Positions 6,001 to 24,000 of a DNA stretch of 62,585 nt are shown here, piece by piece. The first letter of the stretch is position 1. The number at the start of each line of letters is the position of its first letter. Made by a program: the position numbers. Origin of the DNA: Escherichia coli (GTDB lineage Bacteria; Pseudomonadota; Gammaproteobacteria; Enterobacterales; Enterobacteriaceae); assembly GCF_002854065.1 (NCBI RefSeq), contig NZ_CP024148.1; one strand, written 5' to 3'.

Positions 6001-9000
6001 AGCGAATACAGAACGTGTCGTTTCAAAAGCAATTACCGGCTGTGGTGTCTTCCGTGATATACCACAAGTAAAAATCAATCTCATCGAAACAAGGAAAATT
6101 TTACAAATCGAACTGGCTTTATCCATTGCTAACTTATCTGAGGCGAATCCAATTGAGATACGAAAAAAAATCAAAAGCATTGACCGACAATTATCTTCAA
6201 CCTCAAAAATCAGAACTACATTATGAAAAAAAACGACGATTTAATCACTTTACCATCTCATAACAGCCACGCTCTCGATTACATCATTAAAAAAGCGTTT
6301 ACACCACGTAAAACCAAAACATCGACAGCGACCCACAACGTTTATAGTTACAATAAAGAAGAATCCACATTAAATTTCCAAAAAATTGGAGAAGCAATTT
6401 TTTTCGGCACAGACCTGGTAATTAAGCTGAAGCCAAATATTAGTGCCTCTGGTGAACTCTTCATCTGCCAGAAGGACTAAGCTATGAACATTGTTTCAGA
6501 ATTTCTTGAGAAAGTAACAACCATTGTTGAATCCACAGCGGCGACGAACGCCGCTAAGGTCGCACAGGCAATATCTCCTACATTTTTTGCGGCTATAGCC
6601 TTATACGTTATTTATCTAATATATGAAATCACGTATGCCCAACGTGACATCCTTATGAACGAGGTGACGAAGAATATCGGTGCATTCGCCCTGGTTGGTG
6701 CATTCACTTATTCAGCGCCTTATTACAGCCAGTTTGTTATTCCTTTTGTAATGCACGCTGGCTCCGACCTTTCTGCTGCTGTTACTGGAGGTTCAGGAAC
6801 TGCAACCAGTGTTGATAATTTGTGGAACGCTCTATCTACGAATTTAAACAACTTCCTTGATACAAGTATGAGTATTTATGGAAAGTTCCAAATTGCTGAG
6901 AAAATGGGGGTTTATCTAGTATGGGGGATTGGCTATATCGGCGGAATGCTTCTCATCTATTACACTACTGTTTTCTTGACACTATCAACTTTCATGGTTG
7001 GAATTCTTCTTTCCGCTGGCATTTTATTCATTTGTTTCGCTCTATTTTCATCGACCAGAAATATGTTTACTGCATGGGTCGGCAGTTGTCTCAACTATAT
7101 ACTGTTAAATTTATTCTATAGCATATCATTTAGTTTCTTAATTAGTTTCGTTGAATCAGTTGTCCCTGTTAATGGAGATATAAAACTATCTATTGTAGTT
7201 TACTTTTTCCTTATTACTATTATTTCCATATTCCTTATAGAACAAGTTGGCACACTCTGTTCTACATTAACAGGTGGGGTAGGTATAAATGGCCTTACAT
7301 CAGCCGCTAATGGCTTTGGAGGTAAGGTTGCATCTGGTTTTATGCGAGCATCAGGACTCCGATCTTTCACCAATGGATTTGCCAGCAAAATGCCAAATCC
7401 ATTCTTTAATGCAGGAAGTCGTTCTGCATCAGCATTAGTTCAGGGATTAAACCGTGGAAGTAAACTTAAAGCGGGGTGATTAACATGAAAGATAAAGTAT
7501 TATCATTTCTCTTTGCTGGAATAATTACCGTAACATCACCATCAATCTTTGCATCTGGTATTCCAGTAGTAGACGTTACAGCGATAGCTAAAACAGTTGA
7601 AGAAGGGCTAAATCGTGCCGCTGAAGCGGCAAGACAGCTTGAGCAACTCAAGCAACAATATGAACAGACCATAAGATACGCTGAAGAACAGAAGAAAAGA
7701 CTCGAAGGCTTCACTGATTTCAGCAATGGCTTTGATAGCGCATCCAGCTATATGAAGGATTCTCTATCAACAATAACAAATAGTGCAAAATCAGATCTTA
7801 GCTCTTTGCGATCGCAATATGACTTATCAAGCAACATTGCAGAGACGCAACAAAAATATGATGCAATCCTGGCTAAGATCAAATTCTATGAAAATTTCAA
7901 CAATGAAATGCAGGAAAGGGCTAAGAGATTAACCACGTTACAGAAGGAGTTCGCGTCAGCAGATACTCCGCAAAAAAAAGCTGACTTATCTAACCAATTG
8001 AATACAGAAAAATTGACAATGGAGCTACAATTGAAGCAATATGATATTGCAGAGAGACAGCTAATCGCGTCTGAAAATGCAAGACAAGAGGCTGTTAGTC
8101 GAGAAAAGTTTAAATTAATGATGCAATAGGTGTTCGAATGAAAAAATTCATAAGCACTTTAACTATCTTGTCATGCTTCCTTTTAGCTGCTTGTGAAGAC
8201 AAAGTTTATGATGTCAGTTACTACACTGAACATCTTGAACAAGCCCAAGATGTTGTCGAAAAATGCAGCAAAGGGGATATGTCTGGTCAAAACTGCGAAA
8301 ATGCGCGTGAAGCCATTCAAAAAGAGCAATCGGGTAAAGCATTTAAAAATATGATGCAATAATCCTTCATTAAAAACAGCTCGCAAAGCGGGCTTTTTTT
8401 GGCTGTACGCAGTGACCAGTTGATAAATAGTTCTAATGTTCGTGCTGCATTAGAACAACGCACAAAAAGAAGAGTACAAGAAGACAGTGCGGGATCTAAT
8501 GGAACGTTTACAATAGAATCACCTTCCCTATAGCAAGGTGATTCTATTTAAAAGAATACCCGCCTCGTGCGGGTCTTATCTTGCTTAAAGATCTATGAAA
8601 CCTCCGGCTTCGGGTATTAAACTATAACTTGCTTTGGCAAATATTGTTTCATTGACTTCATGGAATCTTATTTTCTCCGCCTGTTCATATGTTACAGGGA
8701 AGAACACGCCCCCTGGCTCATTAAACATCATAAAATCACCTTGCATTGCGTTACAATGACAACAATGATTCGCGTAATACTTCATTTTTGCTGTTTTGCT
8801 ATGGGATGGATAATATAATTTTGAATACTCATTAATCCTTGAGAGAGCAGAGGTTGAAATTATTTCAATTTTCGTTAAATCAGTCCACCATACTCTACTG
8901 GTTAACCACCGATAAATCATATTTTTCTTTGAATCAAAATACTCCATACCCTTAGGGGAGGATGTTTCATACCATTCATCTAATATACAATCTTCCCATT

Positions 9001-21000: not shown

Positions 21001-24000
21001 CGTGATATGAAAATATCCAAACGCTCAATTTCCAGTGGTGGTGGTAAGGGAGGAAGTTCACGTACACGGAATGATGATGTAATAGAGCGCCCGGTTCTTC
21101 TTCCTGAAGAAATTGTGTCTCTCCGGGATAAGAAGAATAAAGCCAGAAATATTGCAATCCGTGAAATTATAACCAGTGAATTTAGCCGACCATTTATTGC
21201 CAACAAAATAATCTGGTTTGAAGAACCAGAGTTTAAACGCCGCGTGGATATCGCCCGTAACAATCATGTTGACATTCCAAACCTGTTTACACAAGAAGTC
21301 ATGGATGAAATAGCAAAAATTGCAGAAATTTATCTCCCTAAAGCTGGAGGAAAAAAAGTCATGGTTGCCGGAGGCAATGTGATTACTAATCCAGACCTTG
21401 ATAATCACGATAAAACAGACGTATCTGAATAATCCTCGCAATAAAGATACTATTGATTAGCAAAGACAGGATTCTATTATGAGAATAAAACACTCGAATA
21501 TGATAAATATGAATATGAATATGAATATGAATATGATGAAAGAAGCCATTGATGTTTTGATAAACTCTGAAAAACATATTCTGATTATAGGCGAAACTGG
21601 AACTGGAAAATCAACACTTTTAGCAGAATTGCTAATCAATGACACTGACGTTAAATATTTTGATTTCTGTGATATTTATAAACGCCATGAACACCTTCCC
21701 CTTCTAAAACACCATTATCTTTGCGATGAAAATTTTGATTATTTTGACTTTTTATCTGCACCTGAAAAAACGTTGGTTCTTAATAGTGTAGCCATCGGTA
21801 ACAACTTACGGGAATCAAAAGTTGTTCAGTTTATTGTTCGATTTATTAAAACAGCCAGGAAACGTGGCAAACGTCTTATTGTTGTCACGACTCCTTCAGA
21901 TGGCGGCGTACAGATACAAAATCTTTTCGACACAGTTATATCGTTAACCCGCTCTCACGATGAAATAGGATGCACAGTTATCATTCCAGTACCGGAGTTA
22001 ATTAAATATGAATAAAAAATTGCTTTGTTTATTAATATCCTCTTTTTTATTATCAGGCTGTGCAAACTTCAAAAAAATCAATGCTAATGAACTTGCAGCC
22101 GAAAGAGACGCACAAAAAGCGACTGAATACGCGAAAAAAATTCGTAATAACCCGGTTATCCAGGACTCAACAAAACAATGGATTAATACAACGCCAATTA
22201 TTGAAAAGCAGGTAAAGCAATCAGCGCCGCCCTGCCCGATTGTGATTAATACTCGTTCAGATATTGAGCTACGCCAGATCGCACAACGCATCACACAAAC
22301 CTGTCATATCCCGGTACGAATCAGCGCCGATGTCTGGACCTATCTGAACGGTACAGGCACTGGCTCAACACAACAAATGACAGGCTCAATTCCAGCACCT
22401 GATGCAAATGGAATGGTTCCTCTGGCGTCAGTAGGCAGTCAGCCAGTAAAAGTCTCTTCTGGCGGTACATCACTCCCTGAACTGAATATCTCCGGGCTTC
22501 CAGCCCTACTGCAAACCGTATCCTCACGGCTGGGAATATCCTGGAAATACGATAAAGGTCGTATCACATTCTTCTATCTGGAAACGCGCTCATTCCCGAT
22601 CACATATATGGACAGCAATGTGGCATACAACTCAAAAGTTGTGAGCGGCACAATGTCTTCCAGTGGCAGTACCGGCTCTACCAGTTCTGGCGGTATGACT
22701 GGCGACGCATCAAATACGCAAACTACAACCGTGGAAATGAAATCATCGCTGTACAACGACCTGAAAAGCGAAGTTTCCTCAATGCTGACACCAGGTACAG
22801 GGCGCATGTATCTGTCCACTGGTTCACTGACAGTAACAGATACCCCGGATGTACTGGACAGCGTTCAGGAGATTGTGAACAAGCGTAATAATGAAATGAG
22901 TCGTCAGGTTGTGCTGAACGTTGAAATCCTGAGTATCAAGAAATCAAGCCAGGAACAGGCGGGAATCGACTGGAACGCAGTATTTAATGATGGTCATCTT
23001 GGTCTGAGTCTTGGTGGCTCATTTGGTAATGCCGCCGAGAATGTTATTACCAGTGGTGTATCCATCGTGGACGGTAAGCTGGCTGGCTCAAAAGCATTTC
23101 TGAAAGCCCTGTCGTCACAAGGCAGCGTCAGTGTCGTAACGCAAAACTCCGCTGTGACTAAAAACCTGACGCCCGTCCCTATGCAAATTGCCAATCAGCA
23201 GGGCTTCATTGAAAGTGTCACAACCGATTCCACCGCCAATGTGGGATCATCCACGTCACTGAATGCGGCAACAATAACGACAGGATTCAATATGACTCTG
23301 CTTCCATACATTCAGCCGGATTCACAAAACCTGCAATTGCTGTTCTCAATGAGTCTGTCTGACAAACCTACTTTTGAGGTGTTCGAAAGTGGCGGCAGTA
23401 AAGCACAAACACCGAATGTGGATTTGAAAACAATTAATCAGACTATTGACCTGAAATCAGGCCAGACAGTTATTCTGAGTGGATTCCAGCAATCAAACCG
23501 GAAAACCAGTAAGCAAGGTGTAATAACCCCCTCCTTCTTTGGACTTGGGGGTGGCATTAACAGCGAAGACGGCGACACGATTCTGGTCGTTTTGATTACA
23601 CCAAATGTGCTTAATTCCGGCTCCAGTGCAGTAATAAAAAATGTGAACTAATTAACTGAAAACTCCCTGAAAAAACACAGGGAGTTTTTTTGGAGGTCAC
23701 TTTGTCTGAGAATAATCAGAATAACCGGAATTTCACTTCGGTTATTAAAAACAAGCGTGCTTTTTTCTCCGGTCTGGACTGGAAAACGCTTCCTTCAGAA
23801 GAAAAGAATGCGCGTACATTCGCAAGAAAAAACGACGCTGAATATTTTCTCTCCTGTCAGTATCAGGATTCAGAAAATGAAACCAAAACGATGGTGGCAT
23901 TTATCAGAAAAGAGGATCTTCCCACAGGGGCGTCCTCATTCTGGTCACTGGCACTGATGATAAAACCCCTCATCGAACCTGACGGATACGCTATCTGCGA

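What the first reader, a model, noticed from the sequence alone, without database searches (positions are those of the whole stretch)
6484..21432. T4SS genes split into two blocks by non-T4SS insertions
VirB6-, VirB5- and lipoprotein-like genes (6484-8362) are separated from VirB1-VirB4 and VirB7-VirB11/VirD4 (11960-21432) by about 3.6 kb holding the antisense cassette, TrbM-like, PilL-like and two unknown genes. The VirB6-VirB5-lipoprotein order is inverted relative to IncP trbJ-trbK-trbL. This may mark a past rearrangement or a module boundary.
Basis: partly seen in the sequence, partly recalled or inferred. Interest (0 to 1): 0.3.

Follow-up and report, generated by a model that had tools for sequence, protein, structure and literature searches.

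The report
Standard IncI2 split transfer-gene layout
The split of the conjugation genes into two blocks is real, but it is the normal, already published layout of all IncI2 plasmids; the small upstream block behaves as a swappable cassette that may set which related plasmids are kept out of the cell.

Summary
VirB6, VirB5 and an EexN lipoprotein (6484-8362) lie 3.6 kb upstream of VirB1-B4, VirB7-B11 and VirD4 (11960-21432).

It is not a feature of this plasmid. R721, TP114 and hundreds of IncI2 records share the same order, and a 2025 paper (PMC11873049) already reports it, together with VirB5/VirB6 co-variation.

Most of the intervening genes are not foreign insertions:
- **kikA/trbM and pilL** are needed for transfer in the mouse gut.
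- **ygeA** is needed for transfer in vitro and in the gut.
- **pilM** is dispensable.
- **The antisense DUF5710 gene** is the only true cargo. It sits in a variable slot flanked by a 19-bp hairpin repeat.

Relatives date the rearrangements. A metagenome contig keeps the unsplit order B5-lipoprotein-B6-B8..D4-TrbM-PilL-PilM-PilN..PilV. Pil-less sister plasmids already have the trio upstream of virB1. So one move predates IncI2, and the trbM-pilL-pilM move is probably specific to the IncI2 lineage.

The module-boundary reading holds. The VirB6 loop, VirB5 tail and Eex exist as ancient allele types (synonymous sites saturated) inside a backbone about 99% identical, and they leave displaced relics.

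New but untested: Eex type tracks VirB6 loop type, and PilL begins with a VirB7-like module.

Low interest as stated.

The parts
5873..6480 (+). yhaB (5873-6226) and yhaA (6223-6480), two small ORFs directly upstream of virB6. They probably open the first transfer operon.
   Evidence: ORFs. No Pfam, NCBIfam or PHROG match. They correspond to TP114-001 and TP114-002, both scored essential for conjugation in TP114 Tn-seq. yhaA is identical in nearly all IncI2 plasmids examined (shared accession WP_000739144.1; variants in TP114 and pGABEEC10_2).
6484..7479 (+). virB6 (traA of R721/TP114)
   Evidence: PF04610 TrbL, E=1.5e-35. Protein identical to TP114 TraA (WP_001028540.1). Essential in TP114.
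6823..7297 (+). Variable patch 1, inside virB6 (aa 114-272). Its hypervariable core covers aa 114-150, a hydrophilic loop just before the central transmembrane helices.
   Evidence: 45-80% nucleotide identity to pHeN867, against about 100% on both sides. Synonymous difference (pS) is 0.77-0.85 here and 0.02-0.05 in the flanks. Hydropathy and per-residue variability.
7485..8129 (+). virB5 (trbJ). Only the last ~22 codons (about 8061-8129) are hypervariable.
   Evidence: PF07996, E=3.8e-10. Alignments. The hypervariable C-terminus is also reported in PMC11873049. Essential in TP114.
8138..8362 (+). eex, an EexN-family entry-exclusion lipoprotein, allele type A
   Evidence: NF033894 Eex_IncN, 68 bits against a cutoff of 33. 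Lipobox LLAAC. Only 35-46% identical to the other IncI2 Eex types. Corresponds to TP114-005, non-essential and 'accessory'.
8378..8400 (+). Terminator-like hairpin plus T-run ending the yhaB-eex unit
   Evidence: AGCTCGCAAAGCGGGCT followed by TTTTTTT.
8460..8516 (+). Relic 3' end of a displaced eex gene, reading AQKEEYKKTVRDLMERLQ*
   Evidence: tblastn matches 88% to the C-terminus of type E (R721) Eex, E=8.7e-7, and 71% to Eex B2 of pHeN867.
8556..8574 (+). Left copy of the 19-bp hairpin repeat ATACCCGCCTCGTGCGGGT that bounds the cargo slot
   Evidence: Direct-repeat family D1 and hairpin.
8585..9394 (-). Antisense DUF5710 gene (ygiA), the only accessory cargo in the gap in this window
   Evidence: PF18974, E=2.7e-17. 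No PDB match. Not essential and 'soft-core' in TP114. Present in 344 IncI2-type records and absent from pHeN867.
9393..9411 (+). Right copy of the 19-bp hairpin repeat, followed by a T-run. This is the recombination breakpoint with pHeN867.
   Evidence: Identity to pHeN867 rises to 99.2% from position 9395. The 78 bp from 9396 to 9473 occur twice in pHeN867, once in front of yggB and once in front of trbM.
9442..9741 (+). trbM/kikA
   Evidence: PF07424, E=2.4e-8. 79% identical to the TrbM that follows VirD4 in sister plasmids, and 44% to the L019 TrbM. Required only in situ in TP114, which may be a polar effect on pilL.
9744..10979 (+). pilL, a TcpQ-domain lipoprotein of the type IVb pilus. 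Residues 1-44 (9744-9875) are VirB7-like.
   Evidence: PF10671, E=8.6e-15. C-terminal half 29-34% identical to IncI1/I-gamma PilL. N-terminus 59% identical to the virB7 product, E=3e-18. Required in situ only in TP114.
10985..11422 (+). pilM
   Evidence: PF07419, E=1.6e-13. Not essential in TP114.
11541..11939 (+). ygeA, an orphan gene specific to the IncI2 lineage, lying 20 bp upstream of virB1
   Evidence: No family match. All 11 database homologues are 70-100% identical, most are fragments, and no distant relative was found. Scored + in vitro and ++ in situ in TP114. Absent from the sister plasmids.
11960..15588 (+). virB1 (11960-12544), virB2 (12544-12834), virB3 (12905-13225), virB4 (13231-15588)
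   Evidence: Pfam SLT, TrbC (just under the cutoff), VirB3 and CagE_TrbE_VirB. Annotation.
15620..15754 (+). virB7 (traF), a 44-aa lipoprotein not annotated in RefSeq pMCR_1410
   Evidence: ORF with lipobox LISAC. A homologous 44-aa ORF sits at the same position in pRHB39-C20_4. Named 'R721 traF (virB7)' in the TP114 table, where it is scored not essential.
15754..21432 (+). virB8 (15754-16488), virB9 (16485-17255), virB10 (17245-18384), virB11 (18403-19458), virD4 (19474-21432)
   Evidence: Pfam VirB8, CagX, TrbI, T2SSE and T4SS-DNA_transf.
21479..23651 (+). P-loop ORF (21479-22015), then pilN (22008-23651). The type IVb pilus operon resumes here and continues beyond with pilO to pilV.
   Evidence: pilL-pilM-pilN are contiguous in IncI-gamma/K1 and in L019.

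Best explanation
This is the ordinary, ancestral architecture of the IncI2 (R721/TP114-type) transfer region, not a lesion in this plasmid.

**Shown**
1. The backbone order is yhaB-yhaA-virB6-virB5-eex | cargo slot | trbM-pilL-pilM-ygeA-virB1-B2-B3-B4-B7-B8-B9-B10-B11-virD4 | (P-loop ORF) pilN..pilV. Every IncI2 plasmid examined has it.
2. It derives from a collinear layout still seen in a relative: virB5-lipoprotein-virB6-virB8..virD4-trbM-pilL-pilM-pilN..pilV.
3. The virB6/virB5/eex trio already sits outside the core operon in pil-less sister plasmids.
4. Only the stretch between eex and trbM varies in gene content.
5. Within a backbone about 99% identical, three segments exist as a few deeply diverged allele types with sharp breakpoints: the VirB6 loop and transmembrane segment, the VirB5 C-terminal tail, and eex.

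**Inferred**
1. Two block moves made the layout. An older one took B5/eex/B6 out of the operon. A second one, probably specific to the IncI2 lineage, carried trbM-pilL-pilM from behind virD4 to in front of ygeA-virB1.
2. The trio works as an exchangeable cassette that homologous recombination swaps between the conserved flanks.
3. Placing the VirB5 tail next to eex lets the two travel as one unit, and older copies are pushed downstream and decay.

**Most likely function of the cassette (inferred, untested)**
It sets entry-exclusion specificity. The recipient's Eex lipoprotein recognises the donor's matching VirB6 loop and/or VirB5 tail, and frequency-dependent selection keeps several types in circulation.
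For: **Same order across IncI2**
- R721, TP114, and six further IncI2 plasmids.
- 347 of 519 matching records are collinear over at least 80% of the 16 kb queried.
- PMC11873049 reports virB5/virB6 about 4 kb upstream of virB1, in inverse order, with the arrangement conserved in 240 plasmids.

**Function of the intervening genes**
- TP114 Tn-seq table. TP114 proteins are identical to the window's for VirB6, VirB5, Eex, TrbM and YgeA.

**Deep synteny**
- L019 is collinear and L018 reads D4-PilL-PilM-PilN.
- In pRHB39-C20_4 the order is B6-Eex-B5-B1..D4-TrbM. In pCV839-06-p2 the trio B6-B5-Eex is transcribed divergently from B1..D4-TrbM.
- NZ_CP146509 has the canonical order.
- Relatedness to the window: VirB4 68/68/54%, VirB11 75/55/43%, TrbM 79% against 44%, PilN 68% to L019.

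**Mosaic structure**
- Identity windows.
- Synonymous difference (pS) 0.02-0.05 in the flanks against 0.77-0.85 in patch 1.

**Allele types**
- VirB6 identity classes 99/86/75/68%. Eex types are 35-46% identical to the window's type A.
- Loop, tail and Eex types go together in 9 of the 10 plasmids typed, although the VirB6 N-terminus and C-tail assort independently; pSCS23 is the exception.
- Among about 447 type A/B records, none combines loop A with Eex B or loop B with Eex A.

**Relics of displaced copies**
- Window 8460-8516.
- Tandem eex genes in pHeN867.
- An untranslated type-A VirB5 tail behind a type-B stop codon in pSCS23.

**Cargo slot**
- Hairpin repeats.
- DUF5710 cassette in 344 records; yggB plus toxin-antitoxin pair in 243 of 541.
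Against: - No experiment shows that the IncI2 eex gene excludes anything, or that exclusion is type-specific.
- The linkage of adjacent segments may be largely clonal. Many of the ~447 records belong to a few epidemic mcr-1 or CTX-M lineages, so the zero-recombinant count overstates the independent evidence.
- pSCS23 carries VirB6-A, VirB5-B and Eex-A, so the VirB5 tail is not strictly tied to the other two. That record could also be an assembly chimera.
- dN/dS in the VirB6 loop is 0.4-0.6, raised but below 1, which fits relaxed constraint as well as diversifying selection.
- The direction and number of ancient rearrangements rest on parsimony over a handful of relatives. L019's T4SS is distant (VirB6 21% identical), so its layout may not be the direct ancestor.
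- Operon boundaries rest on consensus scans only.
Confidence: 0.8

Rival explanations
1. Recent insertions in this particular plasmid (the antisense cassette, trbM, pilL and two unknown genes) broke a T4SS operon that was originally contiguous.
For: The antisense DUF5710 gene is flanked by 19-bp direct repeats and is missing from some IncI2 plasmids. In that limited sense, one insertion or deletion polymorphism does exist in the gap.
Against: R721, TP114 and all other IncI2 plasmids examined have trbM-pilL-pilM-ygeA between eex and virB1. Removing the DUF5710 cassette still leaves about 2.7 kb between the blocks. kikA, pilL and ygeA are needed for transfer.
Confidence: 0.03
2. The virB6-virB5-eex trio was acquired from a different, foreign T4SS and merely parked next to the IncI2 core. 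[quoted passage not shown]
For: The trio has a separate location and inverse order. Its alleles are very deeply diverged, with saturated synonymous sites. Two sister plasmids with nearly identical VirB4 carry different trio cassettes in different orientation and internal order.
Against: VirB6 and VirB5 track the same relatives as the core. VirB6 is 54-60% and VirB5 55% identical to the sister plasmids, where VirB9 is 62%, VirB4 68% and VirB11 75%. Against the canonical-order plasmid the figures are 34-37% for VirB6 where VirB4 is 54%. VirB6 and VirB5 are essential parts of the same machine. GC content shows no break at the trio.
Confidence: 0.12
3. The allelic patches reflect only structural co-adaptation of the VirB5-VirB6 interface, as published. 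Eex differs merely because it is physically linked, and plays no part in type specificity.
For: PMC11873049 reports a correlation of 0.96 between VirB5 and VirB6 sequence types and proposes an interaction interface. Eex directly abuts the VirB5 tail, so hitch-hiking is expected. There are no functional data on Eex.
Against: Eex is the most diverged element of the three, at 35-46% identity, with discrete types and nothing between 60% and 90% identity. Eex genes are duplicated and displaced on their own. In pSCS23 the VirB5 tail was exchanged while VirB6 loop and Eex stayed matched. In other T4SS classes the exclusion protein's donor partner is encoded next to it, and in F, IncC and SXT systems that partner is TraG (PMC8923210); that TraG is VirB6-related in its N-terminal domain is background knowledge, not taken from that paper.
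Confidence: 0.35

Closest known systems
R721 / TP114 IncI2 transfer region (traA, trbJ, kikA, pilL, pilM, ygeA, traB-traK, pilN-pilV, shufflon)
   Same: Gene order is identical. The window's VirB6, VirB5, Eex, TrbM and YgeA proteins are identical to those of TP114. R721 has the same backbone. The split and the VirB5/VirB6 co-variation are published (PMC11873049), as is gene essentiality (PMC7508951).
   Different: The window lacks yggB (211 aa), which R721 and TP114 carry between DUF5710 and trbM. Its eex and VirB6 loop are type A, like TP114, whereas R721 is type E. It keeps the P-loop ORF that TP114 has lost.
Canonical MPF_T operons: pKM101/IncN (traC-eex-traD), RP4/IncP (trbJ-trbK-trbL), pRAS4
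   Same: The same 12 components are present, together with an exclusion lipoprotein associated with VirB5 and VirB6 (PMC8923210; PMC13381706).
   Different: In those systems B5-eex-B6 sits inside the operon between B4 and B7/B8. Here the trio is upstream, ordered B6-B5-eex, and separated from virB1 by cargo, trbM-pilL-pilM and ygeA.
IncI1/I-gamma (R64-type) thin-pilus operon pilI-pilV
   Same: Homologous PilL (TcpQ domain), PilM, PilN and onward, plus a shufflon.
   Different: There pilL-pilM-pilN are contiguous and the T4SS is MPF_I. Here ygeA plus virB1 to virD4 lie between pilM and pilN, and PilL carries a VirB7-like N-terminus that the I-gamma PilL lacks.
Exclusion specificity pairs: TraS/TraG (F), Eex/TraG (SXT/R391, IncC), ExcA/TraY (IncI1)
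   Same: An exclusion gene lies next to a polymorphic membrane component of the mating channel and exists in discrete specificity types. TraG's N-terminal domain is VirB6-related (established knowledge; summary in PMC8923210).
   Different: No donor partner is known for P-type Eex/TrbK proteins (PMC8923210). The pairing proposed here rests on co-variation alone.
Polymorphic toxin loci (CDI cdiA-CT/cdiI, Rhs) with displaced 'orphan' modules. This is an analogy of locus dynamics only.
   Same: A variable C-terminal tail and the small adjacent gene are swapped at a conserved junction, and older copies are left downstream as fragments.
   Different: No toxin is involved. VirB5 is a structural pilus and stalk protein. 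The resemblance is recalled from general knowledge and was not tested.

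Membership tests
IncI2 (R721-type) plasmid transfer region | Near-identity and collinearity with the reference IncI2 plasmids R721 and TP114 | tested here: met
   100% identity to pMCR_1410, typed IncI2/MOBP/MPF_T. Same order in R721 and TP114.
IncI2 (R721-type) plasmid transfer region | VirB/D4 T4SS combined with a type IVb pilus | tested here: met
   virB genes and pilL, pilM, pilN-pilV annotations. The shufflon and rci lie outside the region studied and were not examined in the window.
MPF_T (VirB/VirD4) type IV secretion system | VirB1-VirB11 and VirD4 homologues all present | tested here: met
   Pfam hits for B1, B3, B4, B5, B6, B8, B9, B10, B11 and D4. VirB2 scores 27.2 bits against a cutoff of 27.9. 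VirB7 is inferred from size, lipobox and position only.
MPF_T (VirB/VirD4) type IV secretion system | Canonical collinear order B1-B11 | tested here: not met
   B6-B5 lie 3.6 kb upstream of B1. This is a layout variant, not a reason to exclude membership, because all components are present and essential.
EexN-family entry-exclusion lipoprotein | Match to the NF033894 profile above its curated cutoff | tested here: met
   68.1 bits against a cutoff of 33.
EexN-family entry-exclusion lipoprotein | Small lipoprotein encoded next to virB5/virB6 and dispensable for transfer | tested here: met
   74 aa with lipobox. Adjacent to virB5. TP114-005 is non-essential.
EexN-family entry-exclusion lipoprotein | Reduces entry of the cognate plasmid when expressed in recipients | not testable with these tools
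   No IncI2 exclusion experiment was found in the searched library.
Type IVb (R64-like thin) pilus PilL/PilM | Homology to R64-type PilL and PilM | tested here: met
   TcpQ and PilM Pfam domains. tblastn to I-gamma pilL (E=4.6e-24) and pilM (E=9e-11).
Type IVb (R64-like thin) pilus PilL/PilM | Mutant phenotype like other pil genes: needed for mating-pair stabilisation but not for surface mating | tested here: inconclusive
   Literature only. pilL is required in situ and not in vitro, like pilN-S, U and V. pilM is not required in any condition.
Transposon or integron cassette (considered for the DUF5710 insert) | Transposase or integrase, terminal inverted repeats or attC, target-site duplication | tested here: not met
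   No recombinase gene lies in 5.8-11.9 kb. The flanks are 19-bp direct copies of a terminator-like hairpin, not inverted repeats.

The most novel reading that the evidence does not exclude
The IncI2 virB6-virB5-eex unit may be an exclusion-specificity cassette. Each Eex type (A, B1, B2, C, E) would recognise the matching donor VirB6 periplasmic loop, with or without the VirB5 C-terminal tail.

New tail-plus-eex units would be recombined in at a conserved junction in virB5, and old ones displaced downstream as orphans. That would explain why the trio is kept apart from the core operon and ordered B6-B5-eex.

If true, the natural allele series names the long-missing donor partner of P-type (TrbK/Eex) exclusion proteins.

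A second, independent lead concerns PilL. Its VirB7-like N-terminus may dock PilL onto the VirB9/VirB10 outer-membrane complex and back up the short VirB7 (TraF). That would explain why neither gene is needed for surface mating in TP114.
Probability: 0.3. Interest if true: 0.6.

Novelty: already known. Interest (0 to 1): 0.2.

Why it matters
As stated, the finding adds nothing new. The split layout has been implicit in the R721 annotation, is mapped functionally in TP114 (2020), and is explicitly described for 240 IncI2 plasmids (2025).

What could matter is the follow-up. IncI2 plasmids are the main vehicles of mcr-1, and which IncI2 plasmids can enter a cell that already carries one depends on exclusion.

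The locus offers a ready-made natural experiment. It has four or five ancient Eex types, matched VirB6 loops and VirB5 tails, and one natural mismatch (pSCS23). That series could identify the donor-side target of P-type exclusion proteins, which PMC8923210 says is still unknown for IncP TrbK.

The comparative series from L019 through the sister plasmids to IncI2 also shows how a VirB-type secretion system and a type IVb pilus operon came to be interleaved.

Tried and rejected
- **Composition.** GC and skew across 4-24 kb show no break at the trio or at the trbM-pilL block beyond a mild rise in pilL. This gives no evidence of foreign origin.
- **Promoter scan.** Fewer sigma-70-like sites were found than in shuffled sequence, and none in front of trbM. 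Operon starts therefore remain unassigned.
- **DUF5710 protein.** No NCBIfam match and no PDB sequence match; PHROG hits only to families of unknown function.
- **YgeA.** No family match. All 11 database homologues are 70-100% identical, most are fragments, and no distant relative was found. There was no usable alignment, so no structure prediction was attempted.
- **yhaA/yhaB.** No similarity to the ORFs upstream of virB6 in pRHB39-C20_4.
- **PilL homologue search.** The 90%-clustered database returned only IncI2 copies in the listed top 120. The 50%-clustered library was needed to reach relatives.
- **'PilL is the only VirB7 in L019-type systems'.** Dropped. The L019 virB8 ORF starts with its own lipoprotein-like, GEW-containing leader.
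- **Mobile-element explanation for the DUF5710 cassette.** Rejected; see the membership test.
- **RK2 record (BN000925).** Not in the collection. The IncP order is therefore taken from PMC8923210 and general knowledge.
- **Technical limit.** Only the first newly fetched locus reaches the script sandbox per script call. Most multi-plasmid comparisons therefore went through the alignment tools.

Full report
**What the window is**

Window 6000-22000 is 100% identical to pMCR_1410 (NZ_KU922754.1), a plasmid typed IncI2 / MOBP / MPF_T. It matches 519 plasmid records, and 347 of them carry at least 80% of the 16 kb as one collinear place.

**Checking the observation**

Pfam and NCBIfam confirm each call:

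| Coordinates | Gene |
|---|---|
| 6484-7479 | VirB6/TrbL |
| 7485-8129 | VirB5 |
| 8138-8362 | EexN lipoprotein |
| 8585-9394 (-) | DUF5710 |
| 9442-9741 | TrbM/KikA |
| 9744-10979 | TcpQ/PilL |
| 10985-11422 | PilM |
| 11541-11939 | unknown (ygeA) |
| 11960-21432 | VirB1, B2, B3, B4, B8, B9, B10, B11, VirD4 |

VirB7 is a 44-aa lipoprotein ORF at 15620-15754 that RefSeq leaves unannotated. The gap between the blocks is 3,598 bp.

**Is it peculiar to this plasmid?**

No. R721, the IncI2 reference, has the order VirB6-VirB5-EexN-DUF5710(-)-yggB-TrbM-PilL-PilM-YgeA-VirB1..VirD4-P-loop-PilN. TP114 has the same backbone (without the P-loop ORF), and its VirB6, VirB5, Eex, TrbM and YgeA proteins are identical to the window's. 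Six further IncI2 plasmids share the backbone.

The layout is also published. [quoted passage not shown] It adds that the hypervariable VirB5 C-terminus co-varies with VirB6, with a correlation of 0.96. That paper does not mention entry exclusion, pilL or trbM.

**What the intervening genes are**

TP114 transposon sequencing (PMC7508951, Supplementary Data 1) gives direct functional evidence:

| Gene(s) | Result in TP114 |
|---|---|
| yhaB, yhaA, traA (virB6), trbJ (virB5) | essential in vitro |
| Eex (TP114-005), ygiA (DUF5710), yggB | dispensable |
| kikA (trbM), pilL | required only in the mouse gut, like pilN-S, U, V |
| pilM | never required |
| ygeA | + in vitro, ++ in situ |
| traF (virB7) | not required |

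The kikA phenotype could be a polar effect on pilL. 'Non-T4SS insertions' therefore fits only the antisense DUF5710 gene.

That gene sits in a real cargo slot. It is flanked by direct copies of a 19-bp hairpin, ATACCCGCCTCGTGCGGGT, at 8556-8574 and 9393-9411. Slot content differs between plasmids:
- DUF5710 alone, as in this window.
- DUF5710 plus yggB.
- DUF5710 plus yggB plus a RelE/ParE toxin-antitoxin pair.
- A second eex plus yggB plus the toxin-antitoxin pair, without DUF5710.

In PLSDB the DUF5710 cassette occurs in 344 records. yggB with the toxin-antitoxin pair occurs in 243 of 541. The 78 bp from 9396 to 9473, comprising hairpin, ribosome-binding site and the first trbM codons, are duplicated in front of yggB in pHeN867.

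**Where the layout came from**

Relatives form a series:
1. **NZ_CP146509** (VirB4 54% identical) has the canonical order B1-B2-B3-B4-B5-orf-B6-B8..D4.
2. **Two pil-less sister plasmids** (VirB4 68%, VirB11 75%, TrbM 79% identical) already have the trio outside the core.
   - pRHB39-C20_4 reads B6-EexN-B5-B1..D4-TrbM.
   - pCV839-06-p2 has B6-B5-EexN transcribed divergently from B1..D4-TrbM.
   - The two have nearly identical VirB4 but different trio cassettes.
3. **Metagenome contig L019** has a pilus module close to IncI2 (PilN 68%, PilL 37-45% identical) and a more distant T4SS (VirB11 43%). It keeps everything collinear: B5-lipoprotein-B6-B8-B9-B10-B11-orf-D4-TrbM-PilL-PilM-PilN-...-PilV.
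4. **L018** reads D4-PilL-PilM-PilN.
5. **IncI-gamma/K1** also has pilL-pilM-pilN contiguous.

The parsimonious reading is two block moves. The first took B5/eex/B6 out of the operon before IncI2 and its sisters split. The second, probably specific to the IncI2 lineage, carried trbM-pilL-pilM from behind virD4 to in front of ygeA-virB1. Equivalently, it put the core between pilM and pilN. This is inference from a few relatives.

**Module boundary**

Against pHeN867, identity runs as follows:

| Window segment | Content | Identity |
|---|---|---|
| 6223-6822 | yhaA, VirB6 N-terminus | 93-100% |
| 6823-7297 | VirB6 aa 114-272 | 45-80% |
| 7298-8014 | VirB6 tail, VirB5 body | 97-100% |
| 8015-8388 | VirB5 tail, eex | 47-75% |
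| up to 9395 | — | no match, except 52 bp at the eex relic |
| from 9395 | trbM onward | 99.2% |

Synonymous difference (pS) is 0.02-0.05 in the conserved segments and 0.77-0.85, saturated, in the VirB6 patch, where pN is only 0.10-0.44. Between types B and E, dN/dS in the loop is 0.41, against about 0.1 elsewhere. These are therefore ancient alleles recombined into a young backbone.

VirB6 falls into discrete identity classes: 223 records at 99% or more, 203 at 80-90%, then classes at 75% and 68%. Eex has 227 records at 90% or more and none between 60% and 90%.

**Co-variation, the new part**

In 9 of the 10 IncI2 plasmids typed, VirB6 loop type, VirB5 tail type and Eex type go together; pSCS23, described below, is the exception:
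- A/A/A in the window, pVE-F10_2 and TP114.
- B/B/B1 in pHeN867, pAH25-1 and pGABEEC10_2.
- E/E/E in R721 and pEc-050-T20.
- C/C/C in pPG20180059.1 and pSH146_65.

This holds although the VirB6 N-terminus and C-tail assort independently. For example, pGABEEC10_2 against pHeN867 has pS 0.27 in the N-terminus and 0 in loop, tail and Eex. Types B and E are each other's nearest relatives in all three segments.

I also built chimeric queries, loop A joined to tail/Eex B and the reverse. They found no true recombinant among about 447 records. The three hits at 80% coverage or more are loop-B plasmids that lack the first 90 nt of the loop-A query.

One exception exists. pSCS23 has VirB6-A, VirB5-B and Eex-A. 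Its alignment shows a type-B tail and stop codon inserted in front of an intact, now untranslated, type-A tail.

Three observations together look like serial displacement of tail-plus-eex units:
- The relic eex 3' end in the window at 8460-8516, 88% identical to type E.
- The tandem eex genes of pHeN867.
- The B2 remnant in pAH25-1.

**Interpretation and caveats**

The donor partner of an exclusion protein is usually encoded next to it, and none is known for IncP TrbK (PMC8923210). An envelope protein that blocks a T4SS by binding VirB5 has just been reported for Xanthomonas (bioRxiv 2026.05.09.723464).

The IncI2 allele series therefore suggests that Eex recognises the donor VirB6 loop and/or the VirB5 tail. 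This remains untested for several reasons:
- Linkage of neighbouring segments in epidemic clones inflates the apparent association.
- dN/dS stays below 1.
- No IncI2 exclusion experiment was found.

**PilL and VirB7**

The 44-aa VirB7 is 59% identical over its whole length to PilL residues 1-44 (E=3e-18). It is also homologous to the sister plasmid's VirB7.

PilL homologues next to other VirB systems carry a looser version of the same lipoprotein motif. The I-gamma PilL does not. In the 50%-clustered library, only the IncI2 cluster aligns over its full length among the 150 best hits listed.

Neither traF nor pilL is needed for surface mating in TP114, so redundancy is possible. The small size of traF and polar effects are alternative explanations.

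**Verdict**

Interest as stated is low. The worthwhile residue is the testable exclusion-cassette hypothesis and the PilL/VirB7 link.

Noticed in passing
window 15620-15754 and 9744-9875: The unannotated 44-aa VirB7 (traF) lipoprotein is 59% identical (E=3e-18) to the first 44 residues of PilL, so PilL looks like a VirB7-like module fused to a TcpQ domain. Neither gene is needed for surface mating in TP114, which raises the possibility that they are redundant.
   Followed up: partly
window 8460-8516: An orphan 3' end of an eex gene (AQKEEYKKTVRDLMERLQ*) lies downstream of the intact type-A eex. It is 88% identical to the R721-type Eex C-terminus and marks an earlier allele that was displaced.
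   Followed up: yes
window 8556-8574 and 9393-9411: Two direct copies of the 19-bp hairpin ATACCCGCCTCGTGCGGGT bracket the antisense DUF5710 gene, 837 bp apart. The right copy coincides with a recombination breakpoint against pHeN867.
   Followed up: partly
window 21507-21536 (P-loop ORF 21479-22015): An in-frame (AATATG)n repeat encodes an Asn-Met run. The window has 5 tandem copies and R721 has 2, an 18-bp length difference. The whole ORF is absent from TP114, whose pilus still works.
   Followed up: partly
L016 (pSCS23, NZ_KU934209.1) 3663-4392: A natural or assembly-derived recombinant. A type-B VirB5 tail with its stop codon sits in front of an intact, untranslated type-A tail (87 nt), followed by type-A eex, with a type-A VirB6. 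It is the only mismatch found among about 448 records.
   Followed up: partly
window 4001-5409: A second divergent patch lies upstream, over the NfeD-family gene and hypothetical genes. It is 88.6% identical to pHeN867 across 4001-5047 and has no match across 5048-5408, inside a backbone otherwise about 99% identical.
   Followed up: no
L002 (pHeN867) 6096-6650: Many type-B IncI2 plasmids carry two tandem eex genes. B1 is type-specific. B2 resembles type C over most of its length and type E at its C-terminus. This could broaden the range of plasmids excluded.
   Followed up: partly
L006 (pCV839-06-p2) and L008 (pRHB39-C20_4): Two sister plasmids with nearly identical VirB4 carry different virB6/virB5/eex cassettes. 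One is ordered B6-Eex-B5 and co-directional with virB1. The other is B6-B5-Eex and divergent. The trio is therefore also exchangeable outside IncI2.
   Followed up: partly
L019 2772-3749: The virB8 ORF called in this metagenome relative begins with a lipoprotein-like leader containing a GEW motif. It may be a VirB7-VirB8 fusion or a mis-called start that hides a virB7 gene.
   Followed up: no
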